Shown: positions 25,102 to 48,079 of the stretch, one piece after another
Position numbering within the stretch: position 1 is the first letter of the stretch
How the letters are laid out: each line of letters begins with the position of its first letter
Assembly: GCA_034089705.1 (NCBI GenBank)
Contig: JAXDTZ010000009.1
Span: 135,046 to 199,045, forward strand
DNA from: Candidatus Enteromonas sp.
GTDB lineage: Bacteria; Bacillota_I; Bacilli_A; RFN20; CAG-826
Direction of reading: 5' to 3'
DNA length: 64,000 nucleotides
Notes under the pieces: model-generated
What the model was told of the DNA's origin: nothing
Seen by the model: only the letters and a program-made list of their open reading frames with translations
Databases searched by the model: none
Program-made: the position numbers and the translations under genes

Positions 25102-25490
25102 TTTACTGCGCCATCGCTTCCTTTTTGCTCTATTGCGCCGGATTCATCCTCGGCGTTTTGCCGAAAACCAAATCCTCTTTGCCTTTTCGTATCCTCTCGG
25201 GGAGTTTGCTTGGGCTCGGGCTTTTGGCTTTCGCCATTTCCGGAAGCATTGGGTTTGCCAGAATTTACGCGAACGACAAAACCTTCCTCGCCATCCTCGC
25301 GGTGGTCTTCGCTTCCTTAGCGCTCCTTCTTCTTCCTTTTTACGCCTATTTCAAAACCTCACGCCCGAAGTTATCCAGCGTTCTGTTAGGGTTCCTATTC
25401 GTCCTTGGGGTGGCCTTCCTCATATCGATGATCGCCTTGTCCCAGGACGCCATGATCCGCGACGAGATCAATCAAACGTCCCAAATCTGA
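25098..25490 (+). CDS. Small polytopic membrane protein (4 TM), translationally coupled to the Fic-like gene
   Basis: ATGA overlap with the upstream stop; strongly hydrophobic. Confidence 0.55.
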   Translation: MIYCAIASFLLYCAGFILGVLPKTKSSLPFRILSGSLLGLGLLAFAISGSIGFARIYANDKTFLAILAVVFASLALLLLPFYAYFKTSRPKLSSVLLGFLFVLGVAFLISMIALSQDAMIRDEINQTSQI

Positions 25491-26962
25491 TGGGCCAAAC
25501 CCGGAACATCCACGAAGGGGTTCCGGTTTTTTTGATAGGCGAAAACCGCGTCGTTTCGTTCCCTTTCCCGGTCGGAAATGGGATCGAGGTCGTTCCATTC
25601 AAGATAGGTTTCGATCGCCCAACTCGATAAGGAGGGATAGGCTTTCCCATCGAACGAAGCATAGGATTTCCATCCAGGCAATTCGCTTTGGTAACGGGTC
25701 ACAAAATAGAAATAGATTCGGGCGATATCCCCTTTGTATTCGTCGATGACTTCACAACAAGACCCCGAATAACCGCGGTTTTTCTGAGAGTCCCCCGTTC
25801 CCACGGTCGTGCCGTTGGTGGACTTGTAGCTCACGTTGCTTCCCACGTAACCATGAGGGAAATTCGAGCGGCGGTTATTGACGTAGGCGTCCGTGGGCAA
25901 TAGATGGTGGAGGTCGCTTTTCATCGGGGCGCGCTCGGAGAAGACGCTTTGGGGAATCGTGTGTTCTCGGTTGAACATCTGCCCTTCCTTGCTGTAATTC
26001 CCTTTCCCAGGAGCCCCTTGATGGTCCGCGGTCGGGGAATAACGATAGGCGGAATACATATCCACGATTTTCCCTTCTTCGTCGGTGTCCGTGCTCGAAT
26101 AGGCCTCATATGCGAAATCGTAACCTTTGCTTTGGTAGCCTTTGGAAATGCGTTCGCACAAGGCAGTTTTGAGGTTGGCCCCTTTTAAGGACCAATTGAT
26201 CCCTTGGTAGTATTCGTCGGAAGAAGAGGGCAAGGTCGTCGAGGTCGATGAAGAAACGCTGCTAGATTCGCTTTCCGTCGTCGAATCCAACACTTCCGAG
26301 GAAGAGGTTTCCGGCGTCGAGGTTTCGGGCAAACTTCCTCCCACGTACACAGTGAGGGAAGATAGGCAAAAACGAATGCTTCCCGAGAGAGAAAAAGAAG
26401 AAACCGGAATCCCAAACGAGGTGGAATAGGTCGGGGAGGAAGAAGGGACGGTCTCTTCCAAAACAGGGGAAGTGAGTTCGTTTCCTCCCCAAGTCAAAAT
26501 CAAGGAATAGGGCGAAGAATAGACGAAAGAATAGACTTCAATCGCTTGGATTGGGGTCGAAAAAGTAAACGACATGCTGCCGGATTTGTTTCCGCTACCG
26601 ATACGAACCGCGCTTCCGACTCCGCCGGAATAGCAATTCGAACCATGGACGGATACCTCGATTTCGCTTTCGTAACATTTCGAATCAAAGACGGAGGAAC
26701 CCGTGTATTTTGTTTCCCCGAACTCAATGCGATACGACTTCCCCGTTTCTTCGCTGGAACTAGAAGATTCACCCAAAACAGGAGACGAATTTTCTTCTAG
26801 GCTGGAGGATTCGTCCGTAGATAGGCTCGGAACAGAATCCGAAAGAGTCGATTCCAAGGATTCTTCTTCACTAGTTACGGAAGAAGTTCCTCCGCAGGAA
26901 CCGAGCAAAAACGCCCCAAGAACGAAGAGGCAAGGGAATTTTCCCGTCGATTGCATTTTCAT
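25472..26962 (-). CDS. Lipoprotein nuclease: unknown N-terminal domain, Ser-rich linker, Endonuclease-I family domain
   Basis: The lipobox LLGSCGG follows MKMQSTGKFPCLFVLGAF. The linker contains SSSVSSSTSTTLPSSSDE. The C-terminal domain carries NREHTIPQS...DLHHLLPTDAYVNNRRSNFPHG, an Endonuclease_1 signature. Confidence 0.75.
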   Translation of the reverse strand: MKMQSTGKFPCLFVLGAFLLGSCGGTSSVTSEEESLESTLSDSVPSLSTDESSSLEENSSPVLGESSSSSEETGKSYRIEFGETKYTGSSVFDSKCYESEIEVSVHGSNCYSGGVGSAVRIGSGNKSGSMSFTFSTPIQAIEVYSFVYSSPYSLILTWGGNELTSPVLEETVPSSSPTYSTSFGIPVSSFSLSGSIRFCLSSLTVYVGGSLPETSTPETSSSEVLDSTTESESSSVSSSTSTTLPSSSDEYYQGINWSLKGANLKTALCERISKGYQSKGYDFAYEAYSSTDTDEEGKIVDMYSAYRYSPTADHQGAPGKGNYSKEGQMFNREHTIPQSVFSERAPMKSDLHHLLPTDAYVNNRRSNFPHGYVGSNVSYKSTNGTTVGTGDSQKNRGYSGSCCEVIDEYKGDIARIYFYFVTRYQSELPGWKSYASFDGKAYPSLSSWAIETYLEWNDLDPISDRERERNDAVFAYQKNRNPFVDVPGLAHQIWDV

Positions 26963-39699: not shown

Positions 39700-41612
<1,913 letters not shown>

Positions 41613-41661
41613 GATAATGCGAACTTCCTTTCTGAGTTGCACCATTACTTTATCCATTTTT

Positions 41662-41688
41662 TTAGCAGTGTCAAGTTATGAGTGCTAA
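41662..41688. promoter_or_regulatory. CIRCE element (HrcA operator) TTAGCAGTG-N9-GAGTGCTAA
   Basis: It matches TTAGCACTC-N9-GAGTGCTAA at 16/18 positions, upstream of groES. Confidence 0.8.
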
Positions 41689-41691
41689 TTT

Positions 41692-41718
41692 TTAGCAAAT
41701 ATTTATCTTGTTTGCTAA
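41692..41718. promoter_or_regulatory. Second palindrome TTAGCAAA-N11-TTTGCTAA, CIRCE-half-site-like, adjacent to CIRCE
   Basis: A perfect 8-bp inverted repeat. It is followed by a third small palindrome, GTGTTA.ATAACAC, at about 41732-41746. Confidence 0.4.
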
Positions 41719-41843
41719 AACGTGTTAATAACACGCGAAAAAGAAAGGGCTTGGAAGAATAGTAACGCTCATAAAACCGCAATGGTTGAACGGAAAATCA
41801 CCCGTTCGTTTTCCAAACCTTATATAAATAAAGATAAGAAATC

Positions 41844-44267
41844 TTAAGAAGCGGAATAGAACTCAATCGCTTGGATGAATCCGCGCTTGTTGAACGCGAA
41901 GGAAATTTCGTTCGAAGGGTTGATGTCGAACTGATCTTCACGGAGTTCCACTCCCTCGTCGTTGTATTTTTTACCCGACACGACGGGTTCGCAATCGCCG
42001 ACCGCCAACGTGTCGGTGGCAGTCCAGCCGATCCATTTCACGACGACGCGGAAGACAGAAACGGAAAGCACGGTGGTCATGGATCCGGCCCCAGAGGCAG
42101 CTCCTAATTTCAAGCCAAATTGATAATAATTAGCATAACCGGCAATAAGTTTGCTGATGTCTTTGACTTCCGTAACGACGCTTTCCGGGAAATCCGCGCT
42201 CTTGGAGGAGTCAAACCTCGCCAAAGCCACGGCGGGGTCGGTGATCATGGCGTAGCTTGTATTGCCCGTCCCGAAATCGTAAGAACCGACTTTGGTGTAG
42301 CTAGTGGGCTCGGCCACGACGGTGACCGTCGCGGAAGCGCTCTTGCTCGGGTCGGCGACCGAGGTCGCAGTGATGGTGGCGATGCCGGGGGCGACGCCGG
42401 TAACTTTTCCGCCCTCAACGGTGGCGACGGCCGGGTCGCTCGAAGCCCAGGTCACGGATTGGTCCGCGGCGGCGGGGGTAATGGTGGAAACGAGGGCGGT
42501 CTTGAGCCCAACTATAAGGGAGGCTTCGGTTTTATTCAAAGCGACGGACTCCACGTCGTAACGGATTCGCGAAGCGGAAGCAACGTAAAGGCTGAAATAA
42601 GAGGTTTTGGAATTCCACGAAGCGAGGTAGCCTTTGACGACGTATTCCCCGCCGACGGCGAAGGTTTCGTCGCAATCGATGGGGGAAATGGCCGACGTGG
42701 TGATGTCGCCGCCAAAGAAAAAATTCGTGGAATCTCCTTTTTTCTTAACGGTCAAGGAGCCTTTGAAAGCGACGAGGTTGCGGGTTTGTTTGGTGTCCGC
42801 ATTCAATTGCTCGAGGTTCGTGACGGTAGGCTTGGAAAGGAAGGTTTCCGCGACTTCGACGGTGGATTCCTCAACGATGGAATCGGCAGCGAATAGGTAT
42901 TCCCCGTGATAAGCGCTGGCCGCGCCGGTGATCTTGTACTTTTGCCCGACCTCGTAAGTGGCGGGGACATTGCCGGATCCGTAATAGATCGAAACGGCGC
43001 CGGTGCCATCGTCGAGGTAAACCGCGGCTTTGGTGATGAGGGTCACGACGCCTTCGACGATGTAGCTTCCCGCTTCGGCGATTTCCCCCATCTTGGCTTC
43101 CTTCGCGTTCGAAACATTGGAATTATCGACTTCCAAGTTGTCGAAATAGGTGTATTGGAACCCTTCCCCTTTATAGCCGACGCCCACCCAGGTATCGAGG
43201 GTGATGAGAGATCCGACTATGACGCCTGCCATCAGATTCAGGTCATTGTCCGAGCCTTTGAGGTAGAGGGTTTCTTCCTTTTGGCCCTCTCCCGCGGAGA
43301 ATCTGACGGTCATGTTGCCGTAGGAGTCGGTGGAAGCACTTGTGACTTCGACCGCTTCGAGGTGGGCTTTGCGGTTCACGTCGGCGGAAGTGAGGATCGG
43401 GTTCGAGGTCGCGGAAACGTTGAGGATATTGGGGGTAACGATCGAAGGATCGGTCACTTTTTTAACAGATTTGTTCTTCCAAAATCCAGTTTTGATCAAA
43501 CCGAAGGAATTGCAAACGGCGGTGGTGACTTCCACGACGTCGCCGATTTGGACGCCGGCCCAATCCTCGTCATAGGTTGTGTAGATCAGCAAAGCGGAAT
43601 CCCCGTCTTGGATGAATCGGGCGACGCGTTGGTCTTTACCTTGACTTTGGACAACCACATTGTTCATGCCGGTGTAAACGCCGCGAGTGGTGAATTCTTC
43701 CGAAAAAGTATAACCGTCGTTAGGCAATTGGGATCCAATTTGCAAAACCTCGGAAATCTTCATGTTTCCCACCACCGGTTCGGTGACGGTGACTTGGACG
43801 GTCGCGGTTTTGGTCGGGTCGGCGACGGAAGCGGCCGCGATGATGGCCGATCCCGCTTGTAGGGCAGTGATGGTTCCGCCGGAAACCGTGGCGACGGCCG
43901 GGACGCTCGAAGTCCAAGTGACGTTCTTGTTCATGCTTCCGGAGACCGTGGCGGTGACAAAAATAGTTTGCCCGACTTTCAACGTAACTGCCGTTTGGTC
44001 GACGGTGATGACGATGCTTTCCACTTGTTCAGAAGAAGAGGATTCCGAGTCACTTGGTATCCCGGGATTCGAAGTCTCGTGGACGGAACTGGGTACTTGG
44101 GGTTCATTCGTCTCAATCGAAGTTATCTGCGGCTCGACAGGATTCGAAGTCTCGTGGACGGAACTAGAAACCTCCGGCTCATTTGGGGCTTGGATAGCAG
44201 GAAACAAAGAGCAACCGCTCAAGGAAAAAGTGGCAAGAAGCAGGAATAAGGATTGGATTTTGGACAT
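41844..44267 (-). CDS. Large surface lipoprotein (807 aa) with an N-proximal Big_2 Ig-like domain, an unknown central region and a C-terminal Big_2 plus unknown domain; paralog A
   Basis: Lipobox MSKIQSLFLLLATFSLSGCSLFP. Big_2 signatures (VTWTSSVPAVATVSGGTITALQAGSAIIAAASVADPTKTATVQVTV and VTWASSDPAVATVEGGKVTGVAPGIATITATSV). It ends ...FIQAIEFYSAS. Confidence 0.8.
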   Translation of the reverse strand: MSKIQSLFLLLATFSLSGCSLFPAIQAPNEPEVSSSVHETSNPVEPQITSIETNEPQVPSSVHETSNPGIPSDSESSSSEQVESIVITVDQTAVTLKVGQTIFVTATVSGSMNKNVTWTSSVPAVATVSGGTITALQAGSAIIAAASVADPTKTATVQVTVTEPVVGNMKISEVLQIGSQLPNDGYTFSEEFTTRGVYTGMNNVVVQSQGKDQRVARFIQDGDSALLIYTTYDEDWAGVQIGDVVEVTTAVCNSFGLIKTGFWKNKSVKKVTDPSIVTPNILNVSATSNPILTSADVNRKAHLEAVEVTSASTDSYGNMTVRFSAGEGQKEETLYLKGSDNDLNLMAGVIVGSLITLDTWVGVGYKGEGFQYTYFDNLEVDNSNVSNAKEAKMGEIAEAGSYIVEGVVTLITKAAVYLDDGTGAVSIYYGSGNVPATYEVGQKYKITGAASAYHGEYLFAADSIVEESTVEVAETFLSKPTVTNLEQLNADTKQTRNLVAFKGSLTVKKKGDSTNFFFGGDITTSAISPIDCDETFAVGGEYVVKGYLASWNSKTSYFSLYVASASRIRYDVESVALNKTEASLIVGLKTALVSTITPAAADQSVTWASSDPAVATVEGGKVTGVAPGIATITATSVADPSKSASATVTVVAEPTSYTKVGSYDFGTGNTSYAMITDPAVALARFDSSKSADFPESVVTEVKDISKLIAGYANYYQFGLKLGAASGAGSMTTVLSVSVFRVVVKWIGWTATDTLAVGDCEPVVSGKKYNDEGVELREDQFDINPSNEISFAFNKRGFIQAIEFYSAS
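44064..44165. repeat. 75-bp intragenic tandem duplication (GGATTCGAAGTCTCGTGGACGGAACT core, encoding a repeated SSVHETSNP) in paralog A
   Basis: The 27-nt core recurs exactly 75 nt (25 codons) apart. Paralog B has a single copy. Confidence 0.7.
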
Positions 44268-44519
44268 GCGAGCCCCCCTTATTAGGTCATTTCATTATCC
44301 CATTGAACCCACAATTTGAATAGGGGCAATGGGCGAAAAGCCTTGGAAGGAATCTTCATGGAAACAGGATTCGATCACAACAAACGATAGAGGAAAAGAA
44401 AACCTTTCTAGTCGCGGTCTTAAATTAGACCTCAGCAGGCTGCCATCGCCATTTCAAAACGCAACGGAAAAGCGTTCCCATTGGTTTACATATAAAAAAG
44501 AAACGCTCCCAAAAATTAA

Positions 44520-46847
44520 TTAAGAAGCGGAATAAAACTCAATCGCTTGAATGAACCCGCGTCTGGTAATCCTGAAGGAAACCTCGTTCGAAGCGGTGAT
44601 GTCAAACTGATCTTCGCGAAGTGTCACTCCTTCTTCGTTATAATTTTTGCCCGACGCGATGGGTTCGCAATCGCCGACTTTCAGCGTTTCGGCGGCATAC
44701 ATACCGATCCATTTCACGACGACGCGGGACACAGAGGCGGATAGCACGGTGGTCATGGTTCCGGCCACTTTGCTAGTTCCGAATTTCAAACCAAATTGAT
44801 AATATTTCGGATAACCGGCACTAAGTTTGCTGATGCCTTTGACTTCCGTAACGACACTTTCCGGGAAATCCGCGCTTTTGGAAGAATCGAACCTCGCCAA
44901 AGCCACGGCGGGGTCGGTGATTAAGGCGTTGCTTGTATTGCCCGTGCCGAAATCGTAAGAACCGACTTTGGTATAGGTGGCGGTGTCGGCCACGACGGTG
45001 ACCGTCGCGGAAGCGCTCTTGGTCAGGTTGTCGACTGAGGTCGCCGTGATGGTGGCGGTGCCGGGGGCGACGCCGGTGACTTTTCCGCCCTCAACGGTGG
45101 CGACGGCCGTGTCGCTCGAAGTCCAGCTCACGGATTGGTCCGCGGCGGCGGGGGTGATGGTGGAAACAATGGTGGTCCTGGTCCCTTCCTTGAGAGAAAC
45201 TTCGGTTTTGTCCAAAGCAATGGACTCCACGTTGACATGATTCCTCACGGCGGAAGCGACGTAGAGGCCGAAATAAGAGTATTTGGAAATCCACGAAGCG
45301 AGGTAGCCTTTGACGACGTATTCCCCGTCAACGGCGAAGGATCCGTTGTAATTCTTGGGGGAGATGGCCGGGGTGGAGATGTCACCGCCGAAGTAAAGGT
45401 TCGTGAAATTCCCGTTTTTCTTGGCGATTAACGTGCCTTCAAAGGCGACGAGGTTGCGGGTTTGTTTGGTGTCCGCGGTCAATTGCTCGAGGTTCGTGAT
45501 GGAAGGTTTGGAAAGGAAGGTCTCCGCGACTTCGACGGTGGAGCTCACGATTTCGGAATCCGCCGCGAATTGGTATTCGCCGTGATAGCTGCTGGCCACG
45601 CCGGTGATTTTGTATTTTTGCCCGACCTCGTAAGTTGAGGGGACTTTGCCGGATCCGTAATTGATCGAAACGGCGCCGGTGCCGTCGTCGAGGTACACCG
45701 CGGCTTTGGTGATGAGGGTCACGACGCCTTCGACGATGTAGCTTCCCGCTTCGGCGATTTCCCCCATCTTTACTTCTTTTGCGTCCGGAACATTGGAGTT
45801 GTCGACGGTCAAGTTGTCGAAATAGGTGTATTGGAACCCTTCGCCGCCATAGATGACGCCCACCCAGGTGTCGAGGGTGATGAGGGATTTGGCTTTGACA
45901 TCGGCCATCTGCTCAAGGTCATTTTGCGAGCTTTTGAGGTAGAGGGTTTCTTCCTTTTTGTCCTCTCCCGCGGAGAATGTGATGACCATGTTGCCGCTGG
46001 AGCTGGTGGAAACGTTGGTGACTTCGACTTTTTCGAGGTGGGCTCTGCGGCTCAGGTCGGCGGAAGTGAGGGTCGGGTTCGAGGTCGCGGAAACGTTGAG
46101 GATATTGGGGGTAACGATCGAGGAATCGGTCACCTTTTTGACGGATTTGGTCTTTCCCGCCCCGGCTTCGATCAAACCCTGGTAATTGCAAACGGCGGTG
46201 GTGACTTCCACGACGTCGCCGATTTGGATACCGCTCCAATCCTCGTCGTAGGTTCTGAAAAGCATCAAAGCGGAATCCCCGTCTTGGATGAATCGGGCGA
46301 CGTGCTGATCTTTGTTATCATATTGGCTAACCACGTTGTTCATGCCGGTGTAAACGCCGCGAATGGTGAATTCTGCCAAAAAAGTTTTCCCGTCATTGGG
46401 CAATTGGGATCCGATTTGCAAAACTTCGGAAATCTTAGTGATTTGCACCACGGGTTCGGTGACGGTGACTTCGACGGTCGCGGTTTTGGTCGGGTCGGCG
46501 ACGGATTTGGCCGTGATGGTGGCCGATCCCGCTTTGACGCCGGTGATGGTTCCGCCGGAAACCGTGGCGACGGCCGGGTCGTTCGAAGTCCAAGTGACGT
46601 TCTTGTTCATGCTTCCGGTAACCCTCGCCGAGACAAAAACGTTTTGCCCGACTTCCAACGTAATTTCCGTCTGGTTGACGGAGATGGAAATCGGTTCGGC
46701 AGGATTCGAAGTCTCGTGGACGGAGCTAGAAACCTCCGGCTCACTTGGGATTTGGAGAGTAGGAAACAAAGCGCAACCGCTCAAGGAAAAAGTGGCAAGA
46801 AGCAGGAATAAGGACCGGATTTTGGACATGCAGGACCCCCTTATCAA
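44520..46847 (-). CDS. Large surface lipoprotein (775 aa), paralog B of the 41844-44267 gene
   Basis: Same lipobox (LSGCALFP), same Big_2 domains and an identical C-terminal ...FIQAIEFYSAS. It can be aligned with paralog A end to end. Confidence 0.8.
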   Translation of the reverse strand: MIRGSCMSKIRSLFLLLATFSLSGCALFPTLQIPSEPEVSSSVHETSNPAEPISISVNQTEITLEVGQNVFVSARVTGSMNKNVTWTSNDPAVATVSGGTITGVKAGSATITAKSVADPTKTATVEVTVTEPVVQITKISEVLQIGSQLPNDGKTFLAEFTIRGVYTGMNNVVSQYDNKDQHVARFIQDGDSALMLFRTYDEDWSGIQIGDVVEVTTAVCNYQGLIEAGAGKTKSVKKVTDSSIVTPNILNVSATSNPTLTSADLSRRAHLEKVEVTNVSTSSSGNMVITFSAGEDKKEETLYLKSSQNDLEQMADVKAKSLITLDTWVGVIYGGEGFQYTYFDNLTVDNSNVPDAKEVKMGEIAEAGSYIVEGVVTLITKAAVYLDDGTGAVSINYGSGKVPSTYEVGQKYKITGVASSYHGEYQFAADSEIVSSTVEVAETFLSKPSITNLEQLTADTKQTRNLVAFEGTLIAKKNGNFTNLYFGGDISTPAISPKNYNGSFAVDGEYVVKGYLASWISKYSYFGLYVASAVRNHVNVESIALDKTEVSLKEGTRTTIVSTITPAAADQSVSWTSSDTAVATVEGGKVTGVAPGTATITATSVDNLTKSASATVTVVADTATYTKVGSYDFGTGNTSNALITDPAVALARFDSSKSADFPESVVTEVKGISKLSAGYPKYYQFGLKFGTSKVAGTMTTVLSASVSRVVVKWIGMYAAETLKVGDCEPIASGKNYNEEGVTLREDQFDITASNEVSFRITRRGFIQAIEFYSAS

Positions 46848-46897
46848 GATTGCTTAATTATCCCATGAAACCTTTGATTTGGATAGGCGGAAGCACA

Positions 46898-46930
46898 AAA
46901 AAACCGCGGAGGGAGAACTCCGCGGTGATC
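46898..46930 (-). terminator. Terminator for the Fe-ADH gene (CCGCGGAG-ttctccct-CCGCGG + U7)
   Basis: A hairpin 4 nt after the stop. Confidence 0.75.
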
Positions 46931-46933
46931 GGA

Positions 46934-48079
46934 TTACATCAAGGAACGATAGAGGGCGAGGACGTCTTCCTTGCTCGGCGTCTTGGGGTTGCCCGGGCAG
47001 CAGGCATCCGCTAGAGCGCTATCGGCGAGGAAGTCGAGATCTTCTTCCTTGACGATTTGTTTCAAGGAAGAGGAGATGCCAACATCCGCGGAGAGCTTGG
47101 CCACCGCTTCGATGGCGGCTTTGCGGTATTCCTCTTGGCTCATCGAATCGACGCCTTCGACGCCCATGGCGCGGGCGATTTCGCGGTATTTCTCCCCGGT
47201 CGCTTCCGCGTTGTAGGCCATGACGGTCGGCAGCAGGATCGCGTTGGCGACACCATGCGGGGTGTCGTAGACGGCGCCCAAGGGGTGGGCCATGGAGTGG
47301 ACGAGGCCAAGGCCGACGTTGGAGAATCCCATGCCGGCGACGTATTGGCCAAGGGCCATTCCTTCCCGTCCTTCGGGGTCGTTGTTGACCGCCCCGCGGA
47401 GGGATTTGGAGATCAAGCGGATGGCTTCGAGGTGGAACATGTCCGAGAGGGCCCAGGCCCCGCGGGTGATGTACCCTTCGATGGCGTGGGTGAGGGCGTC
47501 CATGCCCGTCGCGGCGGTGAGGCCTTTGGGCATCGTCTCCATCATCTCGGGGTCAACGAAGGCGACCACGGGGATGTCGTGGGGGTCGACGCAGACGAAT
47601 TTGCGGTTCTTCTCCACGTCGGTGATGACGTAGTTGATGGTGACTTCGGCCGCCGTGCCCGCGGTGGTCGGGACGGCGAAGGTCGGGACGCAGGGGTTCT
47701 TGGTCGGAGCCACCCCTTCGAGGGAACGCACATCGCCGAACTCGGGGTTCGTGATGATGATGCCGATGGCTTTCGCGGTGTCCATGGAGGAGCCTCCTCC
47801 GATGGCGATGATGAAATCGGCCCCGGAAGCTTGGAAGGCTTTCACCCCGTCGAGGACGTTTTGGATGGTGGGGTTGGGTTTGATTTCGCTATAGATGGAA
47901 TACGGGAAGGACGCCTCGTCGAGCAAAGCGGTCACTTTTTGGGTGACGCCGAACTTCAAAAGATCGGGGTCCGAGCAGACAAACGCTTTGGTGAATCCGC
48001 GCGCTTTGGCTTCGTGAAGGATGTTTCCGATGGCCCCTTTCCCGTGGTAAGAGGTTTCGTTGAGAATGAATCTTGGCAT
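46934..48079 (-). CDS. Iron-containing alcohol dehydrogenase (lactaldehyde/1,2-propanediol oxidoreductase-like)
   Basis: GGGSSMDTAKAIGII Fe-ADH signature. 381 aa. Confidence 0.85.
   Translation of the reverse strand: MPRFILNETSYHGKGAIGNILHEAKARGFTKAFVCSDPDLLKFGVTQKVTALLDEASFPYSIYSEIKPNPTIQNVLDGVKAFQASGADFIIAIGGGSSMDTAKAIGIIITNPEFGDVRSLEGVAPTKNPCVPTFAVPTTAGTAAEVTINYVITDVEKNRKFVCVDPHDIPVVAFVDPEMMETMPKGLTAATGMDALTHAIEGYITRGAWALSDMFHLEAIRLISKSLRGAVNNDPEGREGMALGQYVAGMGFSNVGLGLVHSMAHPLGAVYDTPHGVANAILLPTVMAYNAEATGEKYREIARAMGVEGVDSMSQEEYRKAAIEAVAKLSADVGISSSLKQIVKEEDLDFLADSALADACCPGNPKTPSKEDVLALYRSLM

What the first reader, a model, noticed from the sequence alone, without database searches (positions are those of the whole stretch)
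41844..46933. Tandem paralogous ~800-aa Big_2 surface lipoproteins inserted between groESL and the ADH gene
The two adjacent genes (807 and 775 aa) share an identical lipobox and identical last residues, with Big_2 domains at both ends. The central ~350-aa region has no recognisable fold but is strongly conserved between the copies (ISEVLQIGSQLPNDG.TF..EFT.RGVYTGMNNVV...). The arrangement interrupts otherwise Bacillus-like synteny. Tandem near-identical surface genes are a classic substrate for recombinational antigenic or adhesin variation, and the unknown core may be a new binding domain.
Basis: partly seen in the sequence, partly recalled or inferred. Interest (0 to 1): 0.7.

Follow-up and report, generated by a model that had tools for sequence, protein, structure and literature searches.

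The report
Tandem OB-fold surface lipoproteins, likely DNA-capturing
Two neighbouring, diverged copies of a surface lipoprotein from a small-genome gut bacterium (Candidatus Enteromonas) have an "unknown" core that is really a string of OB-fold barrels, and their relatives in other bacteria nearly always sit beside secreted nucleases and an uptake transporter, so they most likely capture extracellular DNA/RNA for feeding rather than serve as a new adhesin.

Summary
The two genes are real. A is 41844-44267(-), 807 aa. B is 44520-46829(-), 769 aa from the ATG that has a ribosome-binding site. They are tandem paralogues with the same LSGC lipobox, but they are not near-identical: 74% aa, 85% nt, dN/dS 0.53.

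Domain order is lipobox, acidic linker, Big_2, module M1, module M2, Big_2, then a 160-aa C-terminal domain (CTD-A).
- **M2:** its first half is homologous to the first half of M1 (hhalign 97%). Its second half is unresolved.
- **CTD-A:** pLDDT 94. It is a CBM-like jelly roll. A weakly supported homologue sits on an Endonuclease I lipoprotein in the same window.

Relatives at about 30% identity lie next to SNase or Endonuclease I genes in 8 of the 11 neighbourhood types read, often with a 5'-nucleotidase and an ABC importer with an MG185-like binding protein. This layout resembles the Mycoplasma nuclease/ABC operons and echoes Bacteroides DdbD (DUF5689).

My best reading is surface nucleic-acid capture for nucleotide scavenging (about 0.55). 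No binding was tested, and this pair lies outside such a cluster. Alleles from other assemblies look mosaic, but I found no programmed variation mechanism. I classify it as a new variant of a known kind, of moderate interest.

The parts
41844..44267 (-). Gene A: 807-aa lipoprotein (signal peptide/lipobox, linker, Big_2, M1, M2, Big_2, CTD-A).
   Evidence: ORF. Exact match to a 'MAG: Ig-like domain-containing protein [Candidatus Enteromonas sp.]' record.
44520..46829 (-). Gene B: 769-aa paralogue, counted from the ATG at 46829. The TTG at 46847 would give 775 aa.
   Evidence: The GGGGG ribosome-binding site at 46836-46840 has the same spacing as in gene A.
44211..44267 (-). Gene A signal peptide with lipobox L-S-G-C (Cys19). 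The gene B equivalent is 46773-46829.
   Evidence: Read from the sequence. It fits the [LVI][ASTVI][GAS]C pattern. No signal-peptide predictor was run.
44016..44210 (-). Acidic Ser/Glu/Pro-rich linker of gene A. It contains a 75-bp tandem duplication (44065-44108 and 44140-44183) that accounts for much of the 38-aa length difference from B.
   Evidence: Gap, repeat family D4, pI 4.05 with no Lys or Arg.
43773..44015 (-). First Big_2 Ig-like domain of A (residues ~85-165). In B: 46449-46691.
   Evidence: Pfam PF02368. It is 70-74% nt-identical to the second Big_2 of the same gene (family D1).
43104..43772 (-). Module M1 of A (residues ~166-388), a tandem OB-fold. In B: 45780-46448.
42558..43103 (-). 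Module M2 of A (residues ~389-570). The first half is an OB domain homologous to the first half of M1. The second half is a beta-rich subdomain of unverified fold. In B: 45234-45779.
   Evidence: hhalign of the first halves of M1 and M2: probability 97%, E 4e-11. About 13 of 19 M2-type segments give sub-threshold PF01336 hits. There are 40 M2-type segments in other proteins. No structure was predicted for M2.
42324..42557 (-). Second Big_2 domain of A (residues ~571-648). In B: 45000-45233.
   Evidence: Pfam PF02368. PDB sequence match to the Big_2 of 7quz.
41847..42323 (-). C-terminal domain CTD-A of A (residues ~649-807), a jelly-roll beta-sandwich of CBM type. In B: 44523-44999.
44294..44303 (-). 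Conserved ATGGGATAAT (extended -10-like) upstream of A, with ribosome-binding site AAGGGGGG at 44273-44280. The same decamer lies upstream of B at 46857-46866.
   Evidence: Promoter function is inferred. The consensus scan did not report it because there is no -35 match.
46903..46926 (-). Strong intrinsic terminator after the upstream alcohol-dehydrogenase gene. B therefore needs its own promoter.
   Evidence: 9-bp stem with 7 G-C pairs followed by a T7 run.
25472..26962 (-). Separate 496-aa lipoprotein in the same window: an N-terminal CTD-A-like domain followed by Endonuclease I.
   Evidence: Pfam PF04231 E 3.6e-62. CTD-A HMM hit E 4e-5. hhalign of A6 against residues 68-225: probability 77.5%, E 1.9e-5.

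Best explanation
Genes A and B encode lipid-anchored cell-surface proteins of a Candidatus Enteromonas bacterium, a small-genome Bacilli relative of the Mollicutes. A flexible acidic linker and two Ig-like Big_2 spacers hold out two OB-fold modules, M1 and M2. A CBM-like jelly-roll domain, CTD-A, sits at the tip.

I propose that the OB modules bind extracellular polynucleotides (DNA and/or RNA), or hold them for surface nucleases. Nucleases, a 5'-nucleotidase and an ABC importer could then turn the polymer into importable nucleotides or nucleosides.

The pair arose by tandem duplication of a complete gene with its promoter and ribosome-binding site. The copies have since diverged under weak or diversifying constraint.

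Shown here: paralogy, domain order, the OB fold of M1, homology between the first halves of M1 and M2, the CBM-like fold of CTD-A, and the conserved nuclease/transporter neighbourhood of relatives. Inferred: surface exposure, nucleic-acid binding, and cooperation with nucleases.
For: **1. Fold.**
- The M1 model has pLDDT 90.3.
- Foldseek over both barrels ranks HIN-200:dsDNA complexes first (E 1.4e-5, TM 0.40-0.46).

**2. Sequence.**
- Family members give repeated sub-threshold PF01336 hits (18 of 45 scanned, best E 1e-5) and DUF5689 hits.
- The first halves of M1 and M2 are homologous (97%).

**3. Gene context of relatives at about 30% identity.**
- Enteromonas orthologues (L001, L002): ABC ATPase, two permeases, an MG185-like binding protein, a 628-aa SNase lipoprotein, a small membrane protein, then the OB protein.
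- P0136 and P0106 with an added 5'-nucleotidase have the same core layout.
- P0116 has SNase, Endonuclease I, a 5'-nucleotidase and the ABC system.
- P0119 has SNase, an LTD-SNase protein, DHH phosphoesterases and a 5'-nucleotidase.
- P0126 has Endonuclease I and a 5'-nucleotidase fragment.
- P0124 has the ABC system and SNase within 8 kb.

**4. Shared domains.**
- The OB domain of the adjacent SNase lipoprotein matches the M2 HMM (E 6e-7).
- CTD-A may also be present on the Endonuclease I lipoprotein in this window, on modest support.

**5. Precedent.**
- DUF5689 protein DdbD is the proposed surface DNA-binding partner in the Bacteroides DNA-utilisation locus. It was likened to the p202 HIN domain (bioRxiv 10.1101/2025.03.18.642099).
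- A DUF5689 protein is required for natural transformation in Riemerella (PMC8459023).
- Mycoplasma SNase lipoprotein genes lie in or beside ABC-transporter operons thought to supply nucleotide precursors (PMC12115388, PMC9740415).
Against: - No binding or localisation was tested. All functional evidence comes from fold, remote homology and gene neighbourhood.
- The window pair itself is not in a nuclease/ABC cluster. It sits between an alcohol-dehydrogenase gene and groES, and no SNase or ABC homologue was found in the 64 kb.
- The modules are acidic: M1 and M2 families have median pI 4.4-4.5, and mature A has 52 K+R against 88 D+E. That is unusual for DNA binders. It is a weak objection, because the genuine SNase and Endonuclease I domains and DUF5689 regions of related proteins are acidic too (pI 4.05-5.8).
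- OB folds also bind oligosaccharides and proteins. CTD-A is CBM-like, and distant relatives carry BACON, Flg_new or dockerin domains. That is compatible with glycan binding.
- A and B themselves do not reach any Pfam OB or DUF5689 threshold.
- The second half of M2 has no established fold.
Confidence: 0.55

Rival explanations
1. Glycan- or host-matrix-binding adhesins. The OB barrels and the CBM-like C-terminal domain bind carbohydrates (mucin, dietary or microbial polysaccharide) or host proteins. The Big_2 domains act as stalks, as in intimin/invasin-type adhesins. This is essentially the first reader's view.
For: - Distant OB-module proteins carry BACON, Flg_new or dockerin domains typical of glycan-processing surface proteins.
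- The protein is strongly acidic.
- The window pair has no nuclease neighbour.
Against: - No glycoside hydrolase, polysaccharide lyase or sugar-utilisation gene was seen next to any relative examined. Nucleases, 5'-nucleotidases and the MG185-type ABC system recur instead.
- The nearest structural relatives of the OB modules bind nucleic acid, not sugars.
- CTD-A appears to be fused to Endonuclease I in this genome.
- The jelly-roll fold alone does not imply sugar binding.
Confidence: 0.2
2. A recombinational antigenic-variation locus. The main significance of the tandem pair would be to generate surface diversity by gene conversion between copies, whatever the protein binds.
For: - Alleles from other Enteromonas assemblies are block-wise mosaic. 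P0172 is 97-100% identical to B for about 150 residues and then 53-65% identical in M1. P0171 switches between P0003-like, P0004-like and B-like blocks. P0003 and P0004 share the body but have unrelated C-terminal domains.
- dN/dS is 0.53, and 0.86 in Big_2-1 and the second half of M1.
- Divergence is mildly heterogeneous along the genes (chi-square p = 0.005; longest identical run 74 nt, permutation P = 0.003).
Against: - Only two copies exist, both full-length, each with its own promoter-like element and ribosome-binding site.
- There are no silent cassettes, inverted repeats or invertible elements, and no long homopolymer or simple repeat at the 5' end.
- At 85% nt identity with differences spread throughout, there is no sign of recent large conversion tracts.
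- The mosaic alleles are mostly contig-end fragments from metagenome assemblies. Chimeric assembly of paralogues or strains cannot be excluded.
Confidence: 0.12
3. A structural scaffold without its own ligand. The protein would dock surface nucleases or the transporter's binding protein through protein-protein contacts, with CTD-A as a shared docking module, and would not bind nucleic acid directly.
For: - CTD-A (or the alternative CTD-4) recurs at or near the termini of many OB-module proteins, and CTD-A may be present on the Endonuclease I lipoprotein.
- The gene order SNase, small membrane protein, OB protein is conserved.
- The acidic surface argues against simple electrostatic DNA binding.
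Against: - Four OB-type barrels per protein, often repeated two or three times in relatives, look more like a multivalent polymer binder than a docking adaptor.
- No interaction was modelled or tested.
Confidence: 0.1

Closest known systems
DdbD / DUF5689 proteins (Bacteroides thetaiotaomicron ddbABCDEF DNA-utilisation locus; Riemerella anatipestifer RA0C_RS04920)
   Same: - Surface-exposed lipoprotein built on OB-type barrels.
- Encoded beside secreted nucleases and an importer.
- Some distant M2-bearing proteins also carry genuine DUF5689 domains.
   Different: - A and B score only 9.5 bits (E 1.1) on PF18942, whose threshold is 28.6.
[quoted passage not shown]
- The host belongs to the Bacilli, the class of Gram-positive bacteria; its envelope was not examined here.
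- The architecture adds Big_2 spacers and a CBM-like C-terminal domain.
Mycoplasma nuclease/ABC-transporter operons (MG_186/Mpn133/Mhp379 SNase lipoproteins with MG185-type lipoproteins) and the polynucleotide-binding lipoprotein MslA of M. gallisepticum
   Same: - In relatives, the OB-protein gene follows an SNase lipoprotein gene and an ABC importer with an MG185_MG260-like binding protein.
- This matches the Mycoplasma layout, which is thought to supply nucleotide precursors (PMC12115388, PMC9740415).
- MslA is a precedent for a polynucleotide-binding lipoprotein in mycoplasmas. This rests on the reference title in PMC12115388 and on my own knowledge of that paper.
   Different: - No sequence relationship between A/B and MslA or MG185 was tested or seen.
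- Mycoplasma operons are not known (from my own knowledge) to contain a Big_2/tandem-OB protein.
- The window pair is detached from any such operon.
HIN-200 domains (AIM2, IFI16, p202, p204, MNDA)
   Same: Two consecutive OB barrels forming one module of about 200 aa. These are the best full-length Foldseek matches to M1 (E 1e-5 to 1e-3, TM 0.40-0.46).
   Different: - Eukaryotic, intracellular and basic, and they bind the dsDNA backbone electrostatically.
- Sequence identity to M1 is only 6-10%, the TM scores are moderate, and M1 is acidic.
- This is fold resemblance only.
Class IIb aminoacyl-tRNA synthetase anticodon-binding OB domain (Pfam PF01336, tRNA_anti-codon)
   Different: All hits are below the gathering score of 27 bits. 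A and B themselves give no hit. The context is extracellular, not a synthetase.
Big_2 adhesins (intimin/invasin-like, 'YjdB'-annotated proteins)
   Same: Each protein has two genuine Big_2 domains. All non-Enteromonas hits of the full-length search, P0006 onward, match only these domains, covering 7-24% of the query.
   Different: Big_2 makes up only about 20% of the protein and probably acts as a spacer. The rest is unrelated to intimin or invasin.

Membership tests
Bacterial lipoprotein (SPII substrate) | N-terminal signal peptide with a basic n-region, a hydrophobic h-region and a lipobox [LVI][ASTVI][GAS]C | tested here: met
   MSKIQSLFLLLATFSLSGC in A and MSKIRSLFLLLATFSLSGC in B. This is a pattern match only. 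No predictor was run and lipidation was not tested.
Big_2 (PF02368) | Score above Pfam's gathering threshold of 22.8 bits | tested here: met
   64.2 bits for A and 80.3 bits for B, with two stretches each.
OB-fold, nucleic-acid-binding type | Five-stranded closed beta-barrel with a helix between strands 3 and 4, and structural similarity to known members | tested here: met
tRNA_anti-codon OB domain (PF01336) | Score at or above the gathering threshold of 27 bits | tested here: not met
   A and B give no hit at E ≤ 1-10. The relatives scanned that scored above 27 bits (P0105, P0128, P0132) had no single matched stretch passing on its own. The rest scored 20-26 bits.
DUF5689 (PF18942; DdbD family) | Score at or above the gathering threshold of 28.6 bits | tested here: not met
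   9.5 bits, E 1.1, over 34 residues of the first half of M2. Genuine DUF5689 domains co-occur with M2-like repeats in P0105, P0128 and P0132.
DUF5689 (PF18942; DdbD family) | Encoded next to a TonB-dependent transporter in a DNA-utilisation locus | tested here: not met
   No such transporter was seen. Relatives sit by ABC importers.
Carbohydrate-binding module (CBM) families | Beta-sandwich jelly-roll fold | tested here: met
Carbohydrate-binding module (CBM) families | Sequence membership of a defined CBM family, or demonstrated sugar binding | tested here: not met
   No Pfam hit for the 158-aa C-terminus at E ≤ 10. Binding is not testable with these tools.
Nuclease/ABC nucleic-acid scavenging locus (Mycoplasma MG185-MG189-like) | Gene lies in a cluster with a secreted or lipoprotein nuclease and the ABC importer | tested here: not met
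   Not met for the window pair. tblastn with the cluster proteins finds no SNase or ABC genes in the 64 kb. It is met for the Enteromonas orthologues in L001 and L002 and for the distant relatives in L004, L009, L011, L012, L014 and L015.
Programmed antigenic or phase-variation locus | Invertible element, silent cassettes, or a long simple repeat in the promoter or 5' coding region | tested here: not met
   No inverted repeats of 25 nt or more in 41500-47100. The only repeats are the paralogy itself, the internal Big_2 duplication and a 75-bp linker repeat. The G runs at the ribosome-binding sites are only 5-6 nt.
Programmed antigenic or phase-variation locus | Recombinant (mosaic) alleles in populations | tested here: inconclusive
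   Block-wise mosaic identities appear among MAG-derived alleles. Most are contig-end fragments, so assembly chimeras cannot be excluded.

The most novel reading that the evidence does not exclude
The M1/M2 tandem-OB modules and the two alternative C-terminal domains (CTD-A and CTD-4) define an undescribed protein family. This family would be the substrate-capture component of a conserved 'DNA-utilisation locus' in Mollicutes-related Bacilli, and possibly other Gram-positive lineages. That locus comprises an SNase and/or Endonuclease I lipoprotein, a small zinc-ribbon membrane protein, the OB-capture protein, a 5'-nucleotidase and an MG185-type ABC importer. It would be the ABC-importer-based counterpart of the recently described Bacteroidales ddb loci. 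The CBM-like CTD, apparently shared between capture protein and nuclease, would act as a common polymer-binding or docking module. The duplicated, fast-evolving pair in this window would be a specialised or immune-driven offshoot.
Probability: 0.35. Interest if true: 0.65.

Novelty: new variant of a known kind. Interest (0 to 1): 0.5.

Why it matters
Small-genome gut Bacilli of the RFN20/RF39 type are uncultured and common in animal guts. I did not check their nucleotide biosynthesis, but the Mycoplasma precedent suggests they may depend on scavenged precursors.

If these proteins capture extracellular DNA or RNA, they would complete a surface "capture, cut, dephosphorylate, import" pathway. 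That pathway would parallel the newly described Bacteroidales DNA-utilisation loci and the Mycoplasma nuclease/ABC operons.

It would also give a name and a testable function to two unannotated domain families. The M1/M2 modules are found in 67 representative clusters in a library of 1.8 billion representative proteins.

It would offer a handle for cultivation, for example by supplying nucleic acids. It would also help in understanding the fate of dietary and host DNA in the gut.

The finding does not reveal a new adhesin fold or a new variation mechanism.

Tried and rejected
- **Full-length homologue search.** Big_2 swamped the results. Only 5 proteins matched beyond Big_2.
- **Word-index searches with the core and with the C-terminus.** These returned only Enteromonas fragments. 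The exhaustive HMMER search was needed to find the modules elsewhere.
- **PDB sequence searches.** Nothing matched beyond Big_2.
- **NCBIfam.** No family matched.
- **Mixed alignment of M1 and M2 segments (A2).** MAFFT stacked the M2 segments onto M1, so I did not use it for folding.
- **Chimeric M1+M2 rows (A3).** M1 and CTD-A were therefore folded separately, and M2 was never folded.
- **afdb50 fold library.** It was unavailable, so I found no AlphaFold-database neighbours.
- **Are CTD-A and CTD-4 homologous?** hhalign gave 27% probability, which is inconclusive.
- **Are the second halves of M1 and M2 related to the other barrels?** Not detectable by hhalign.
- **Net charge as a test of DNA binding.** Uninformative, because the genuine nuclease domains from these organisms are equally acidic.
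- **Rfam scan of the window.** No RNA element was found.
- **Taxonomy lookup of the genus.** It failed. I took the lineage from PMC8035907.
- **Genome-collection scan.** It gave only one other Enteromonas species and one weak Mageeibacillus hit. I could not test whether the ADH/groES gap is empty in related genomes.
- **P0003.** No contig was on record for it.
Full report
**1. What is in the sequence**

Two same-strand ORFs occupy 41844-44267(-) (gene A, 807 aa) and 44520-46847(-) (gene B). For B, the ATG at 46829 lies 7 nt after a GGGGG ribosome-binding site, with the same spacing as in A. The product is therefore more likely 769 aa than the 775 aa counted from the upstream TTG.

Both are exact matches to database entries named [quoted passage not shown] on a 226,571-bp contig. 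That genus was described from chicken-gut metagenomes and placed in order RFN20 of the Bacilli, with genomes of about 1.2-1.8 Mb (PMC8035907).

How the two copies compare:
- BLASTP aligns them end to end with 596/807 identities (74%). The main difference is a 38-residue gap split into two blocks in the N-terminal linker.
- A 75-bp tandem duplication inside A's linker accounts for much of that gap (family D4).
- Nucleotide identity over 769 aligned codons is 85.5%.
- The lipobox (FSLSGC) and the last 13 residues are identical.
- About 70 nt upstream of each ATG are also related, including a shared ATGGGATAAT and the ribosome-binding site.
- A strong terminator follows the upstream alcohol-dehydrogenase gene.

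So a whole gene with its expression signals was duplicated.

**2. Domain anatomy**

Pfam finds only two Big_2 domains per protein, at A residues ~85-165 and ~571-648. NCBIfam finds nothing, and PDB sequence searches match only Big_2.

An exhaustive HMMER search of 1.84 billion representative proteins with the 406-residue core gave 67 hits at E ≤ 0.001. These fall into two classes:
- proteins matching core positions ~23-220, which I call module M1 (A residues ~187-385)
- proteins matching core positions ~225-402, which I call module M2 (A residues ~389-567)

Many hits contain two or three copies of one module. The core is therefore two independent, mobile modules and not one 350-aa domain.

Profile comparison shows that the first halves of M1 and M2 are homologous (hhalign 97%, E 4e-11). 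The second halves show no detectable sequence relationship to each other or to the first halves.

The last ~160 residues (CTD-A) form a further domain. It recurs mostly at or near the C-terminus of other M1- or M2-bearing proteins (P0136, P0163, P0122, P0153, P0162, P0124, P0111 and others).

Two close Enteromonas homologues, P0004 and P0005, have the same body but a different C-terminal domain, CTD-4. CTD-4 also recurs in other OB-module proteins, at the C-terminus in most. The recurrent cassette is therefore OB module(s), Big_2, then CTD.

**3. Structure**

*M1.* I folded M1 with a 22-sequence alignment. It gave pLDDT 90.3 and pTM 0.85, and shows two consecutive beta1-beta2-beta3-helix-beta4-beta5 units, the OB topology.
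- Foldseek aligns both barrels at once. It ranks HIN-200:dsDNA complexes first (E 1.4e-5, TM 0.40-0.46), then RPA and the double-OB SSBs of Thermus and Deinococcus.

*Sequence echo of the fold.* At the sequence level, 18 of 45 family sequences give sub-threshold hits to PF01336, the "OB-fold nucleic acid binding domain" (best E 1e-5). A few hit DUF5689. Larger relatives contain genuine DUF5689 domains alongside M2-like repeats.

The second half of M2 remains unassigned.

**4. Context of relatives**

This is the most informative evidence. I read 11 distinct neighbourhood types.

| Protein (locus) | Neighbouring genes |
|---|---|
| Enteromonas orthologue P0004 (L001) | 628-aa SNase lipoprotein and 150-aa zinc-ribbon membrane protein just upstream |
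| Other Enteromonas species (L002) | ABC ATPase, permease, permease, MG185-like binding protein, SNase, small protein, OB protein |
| P0136, M2 + CTD-A (L004) | binding protein, SNase, small protein, OB protein |
| P0106 (L012) | permeases, binding protein, SNase, small protein, OB protein, 5'-nucleotidase |
| P0116 (L011) | full ABC system, SNase, small protein, OB protein, Endonuclease I, 5'-nucleotidase |
| P0119 (L014) | ABC system, SNase, OB protein, LTD-SNase, RDD proteins, two DHH/DHHA1 phosphoesterases, 5'-nucleotidase |
| P0126 (L015) | 5'-nucleotidase fragment, Endonuclease I, OB protein |
| P0124 (L009) | ABC system and SNase within 8 kb |
| P0111 (L008) | LTD-domain protein |
| P0122 (L007) | uridine-kinase-family gene |
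| P0117, BACON-containing (L016) | nothing informative |

So 8 of the 11 show a secreted or lipoprotein nuclease nearby. The three without one are on short contigs (3.7-6.1 kb).

Two further links:
- The OB domain of the adjacent SNase lipoprotein matches the M2 profile (E 6e-7).
- In the window itself, a separate lipoprotein at 25472-26962(-) carries Endonuclease I (PF04231, E 3.6e-62). It is preceded by a domain that matches the CTD-A profile with modest support (hmmsearch E 4e-5; hhalign 77.5%, E 1.9e-5).

**5. Mechanism proposed**

The Cys19 lipid anchor fixes the protein to the membrane. The acidic, Lys/Arg-free linker and the Big_2 domains act as a stalk. The M1 and M2 barrels bind extracellular polynucleotide. 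The CBM-like CTD is either a second polymer-binding site or a docking module. A weakly supported homologue of it on the Endonuclease I lipoprotein would fit the docking idea. Nucleases, a 5'-nucleotidase and the ABC importer complete the uptake pathway.

The layout mirrors two described systems:
- **The Bacteroidales ddbABCDEF DNA-utilisation locus.** Its DUF5689 protein DdbD is the predicted surface DNA-binding partner of the transporter. It was compared to the same p202 HIN:dsDNA structure (4JBM) that appears in my hit lists (bioRxiv 10.1101/2025.03.18.642099). A DUF5689 protein is also required for natural transformation in Riemerella (PMC8459023).
- **The Mycoplasma operons.** An SNase lipoprotein gene (MG_186, Mpn133, Mhp379) lies by a conserved ABC transporter believed to import nucleotide precursors (PMC12115388, PMC9740415).

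The domain order, the OB fold of M1, the CBM-like fold of CTD-A and the gene neighbourhoods are shown. Binding, surface exposure and cooperation with nucleases are inferred.

**6. Evidence against, and rivals**

Points against the proposed mechanism:
- The window pair is not in a nuclease/ABC cluster. It lies between an Fe-alcohol-dehydrogenase gene and groES, and tblastn finds no SNase or ABC homologue in the 64 kb.
- The modules are acidic family-wide, with median pI 4.4-4.5. This loses force because the genuine SNase and Endonuclease I domains and DUF5689 regions of related proteins are acidic too (pI 4.05-5.8).
- OB folds also bind sugars and proteins. CTD-A is CBM-like, and some distant relatives carry BACON, Flg_new or dockerin domains.

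I therefore keep a glycan/adhesin reading at about 0.2 and a pure scaffold reading at about 0.1.

The recombinational-variation idea has some support:
- dN/dS between the copies is 0.53 overall, and 0.86 in Big_2-1 and the second half of M1.
- Divergence is mildly uneven along the genes. The longest identical run is 74 nt (permutation P = 0.003) and the chi-square p is 0.005.
- Alleles from other assemblies switch nearest relative block by block. P0172 is 97-100% identical to B for ~150 residues and then 53-65% identical. P0171 changes between P0003-like, P0004-like and B-like blocks. P0003 and P0004 differ only by a swapped C-terminal domain.

Against it:
- There are only two complete, separately expressed copies.
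- There are no inverted repeats, no cassettes and no long simple repeats.
- No large recent conversion tract is visible.
- The mosaic alleles are mostly contig-end fragments from metagenome assemblies, where chimeric assembly is a real risk.

I treat variation as a secondary property (about 0.12 as the main explanation).

**7. Comparison with known families and novelty**

A and B are genuine Big_2 proteins and pattern-level lipoproteins. M1 is an OB-fold by structure. A and B fail the sequence thresholds of PF01336 and DUF5689, so they are not members of those families. CTD-A has a CBM-like fold but no CBM family membership.

Neither Pfam nor NCBIfam covers M1, M2, CTD-A or CTD-4. In the papers I consulted on this topic, I met no characterised member. 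Functionally, the closest analogues are DdbD and the Mycoplasma nuclease/ABC systems.

I classify this as a new variant of a known kind: an undescribed tandem-OB capture protein family attached to a Mollicutes-type nucleic-acid scavenging locus. This window holds a duplicated, fast-diverging pair outside that locus. Interest is moderate at 0.5. A specialist would find the OB/nuclease link useful and testable, but not startling.

Noticed in passing
window 25472-26962 (-): 496-aa lipoprotein (lipobox LLGSCGG) with a Ser-rich linker, a CTD-A-like jelly-roll domain (modest support) and a C-terminal Endonuclease I domain. It is a candidate surface nuclease partner of the two OB proteins.
   Followed up: partly
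window 41662-41688 (-), upstream of groES: CIRCE-like inverted repeat TTAGCACTC-N9-CACTGCTAA, with two mismatches in the right arm against the canonical GAGTGCTAA (the canonical sequence is from my own knowledge). The listed groES ORF start at 41657 also looks too far upstream. An MIQPLHDYV... start is more typical.
   Followed up: no
window 44065-44108 and 44140-44183 (-): 75-bp tandem duplication in gene A's linker (repeat of ...SSVHETSNP...). It accounts for much of the 38-aa length difference from gene B, so linker (stalk) length varies between the copies.
   Followed up: partly
window 42318-42456 / 43785-43923 and 44994-45132 / 46461-46599: The two Big_2 domains within each gene are 70-74% identical at the nucleotide level. 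This implies an intragenic Big_2 duplication that predates the gene duplication.
   Followed up: no
L001 2154-2606; L011 7385-7834; L012 6076-6516; L004 3786-4262: A small protein of about 146-158 aa, with no Pfam family, is conserved between the SNase gene and the OB-protein gene in divergent loci. In L001 it has CxxC...CxxC motifs followed by transmembrane segments. No homologue was found in the window.
   Followed up: no
L009 3143-4528 and 9202-10161; L011 1-323; L014 14299-16106: RDD-domain membrane proteins recur next to the nuclease/ABC/OB clusters. In L014 they are accompanied by two DHH/DHHA1 phosphoesterases. They may be further components of the scavenging locus.
   Followed up: no
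P0004 residues 621-752; P0005 residues 624-755: An alternative C-terminal domain, CTD-4, replaces CTD-A in otherwise 85-100% identical Enteromonas proteins. It recurs in other OB-module proteins, at the C-terminus in most. Its relationship to CTD-A is unresolved (hhalign 27%).
   Followed up: partly
L007 2021-2647: A uridine-kinase-family gene (PF00485) lies immediately downstream of the OB-module protein P0122. This is a single case, but it is consistent with a nucleoside-salvage context.
   Followed up: no
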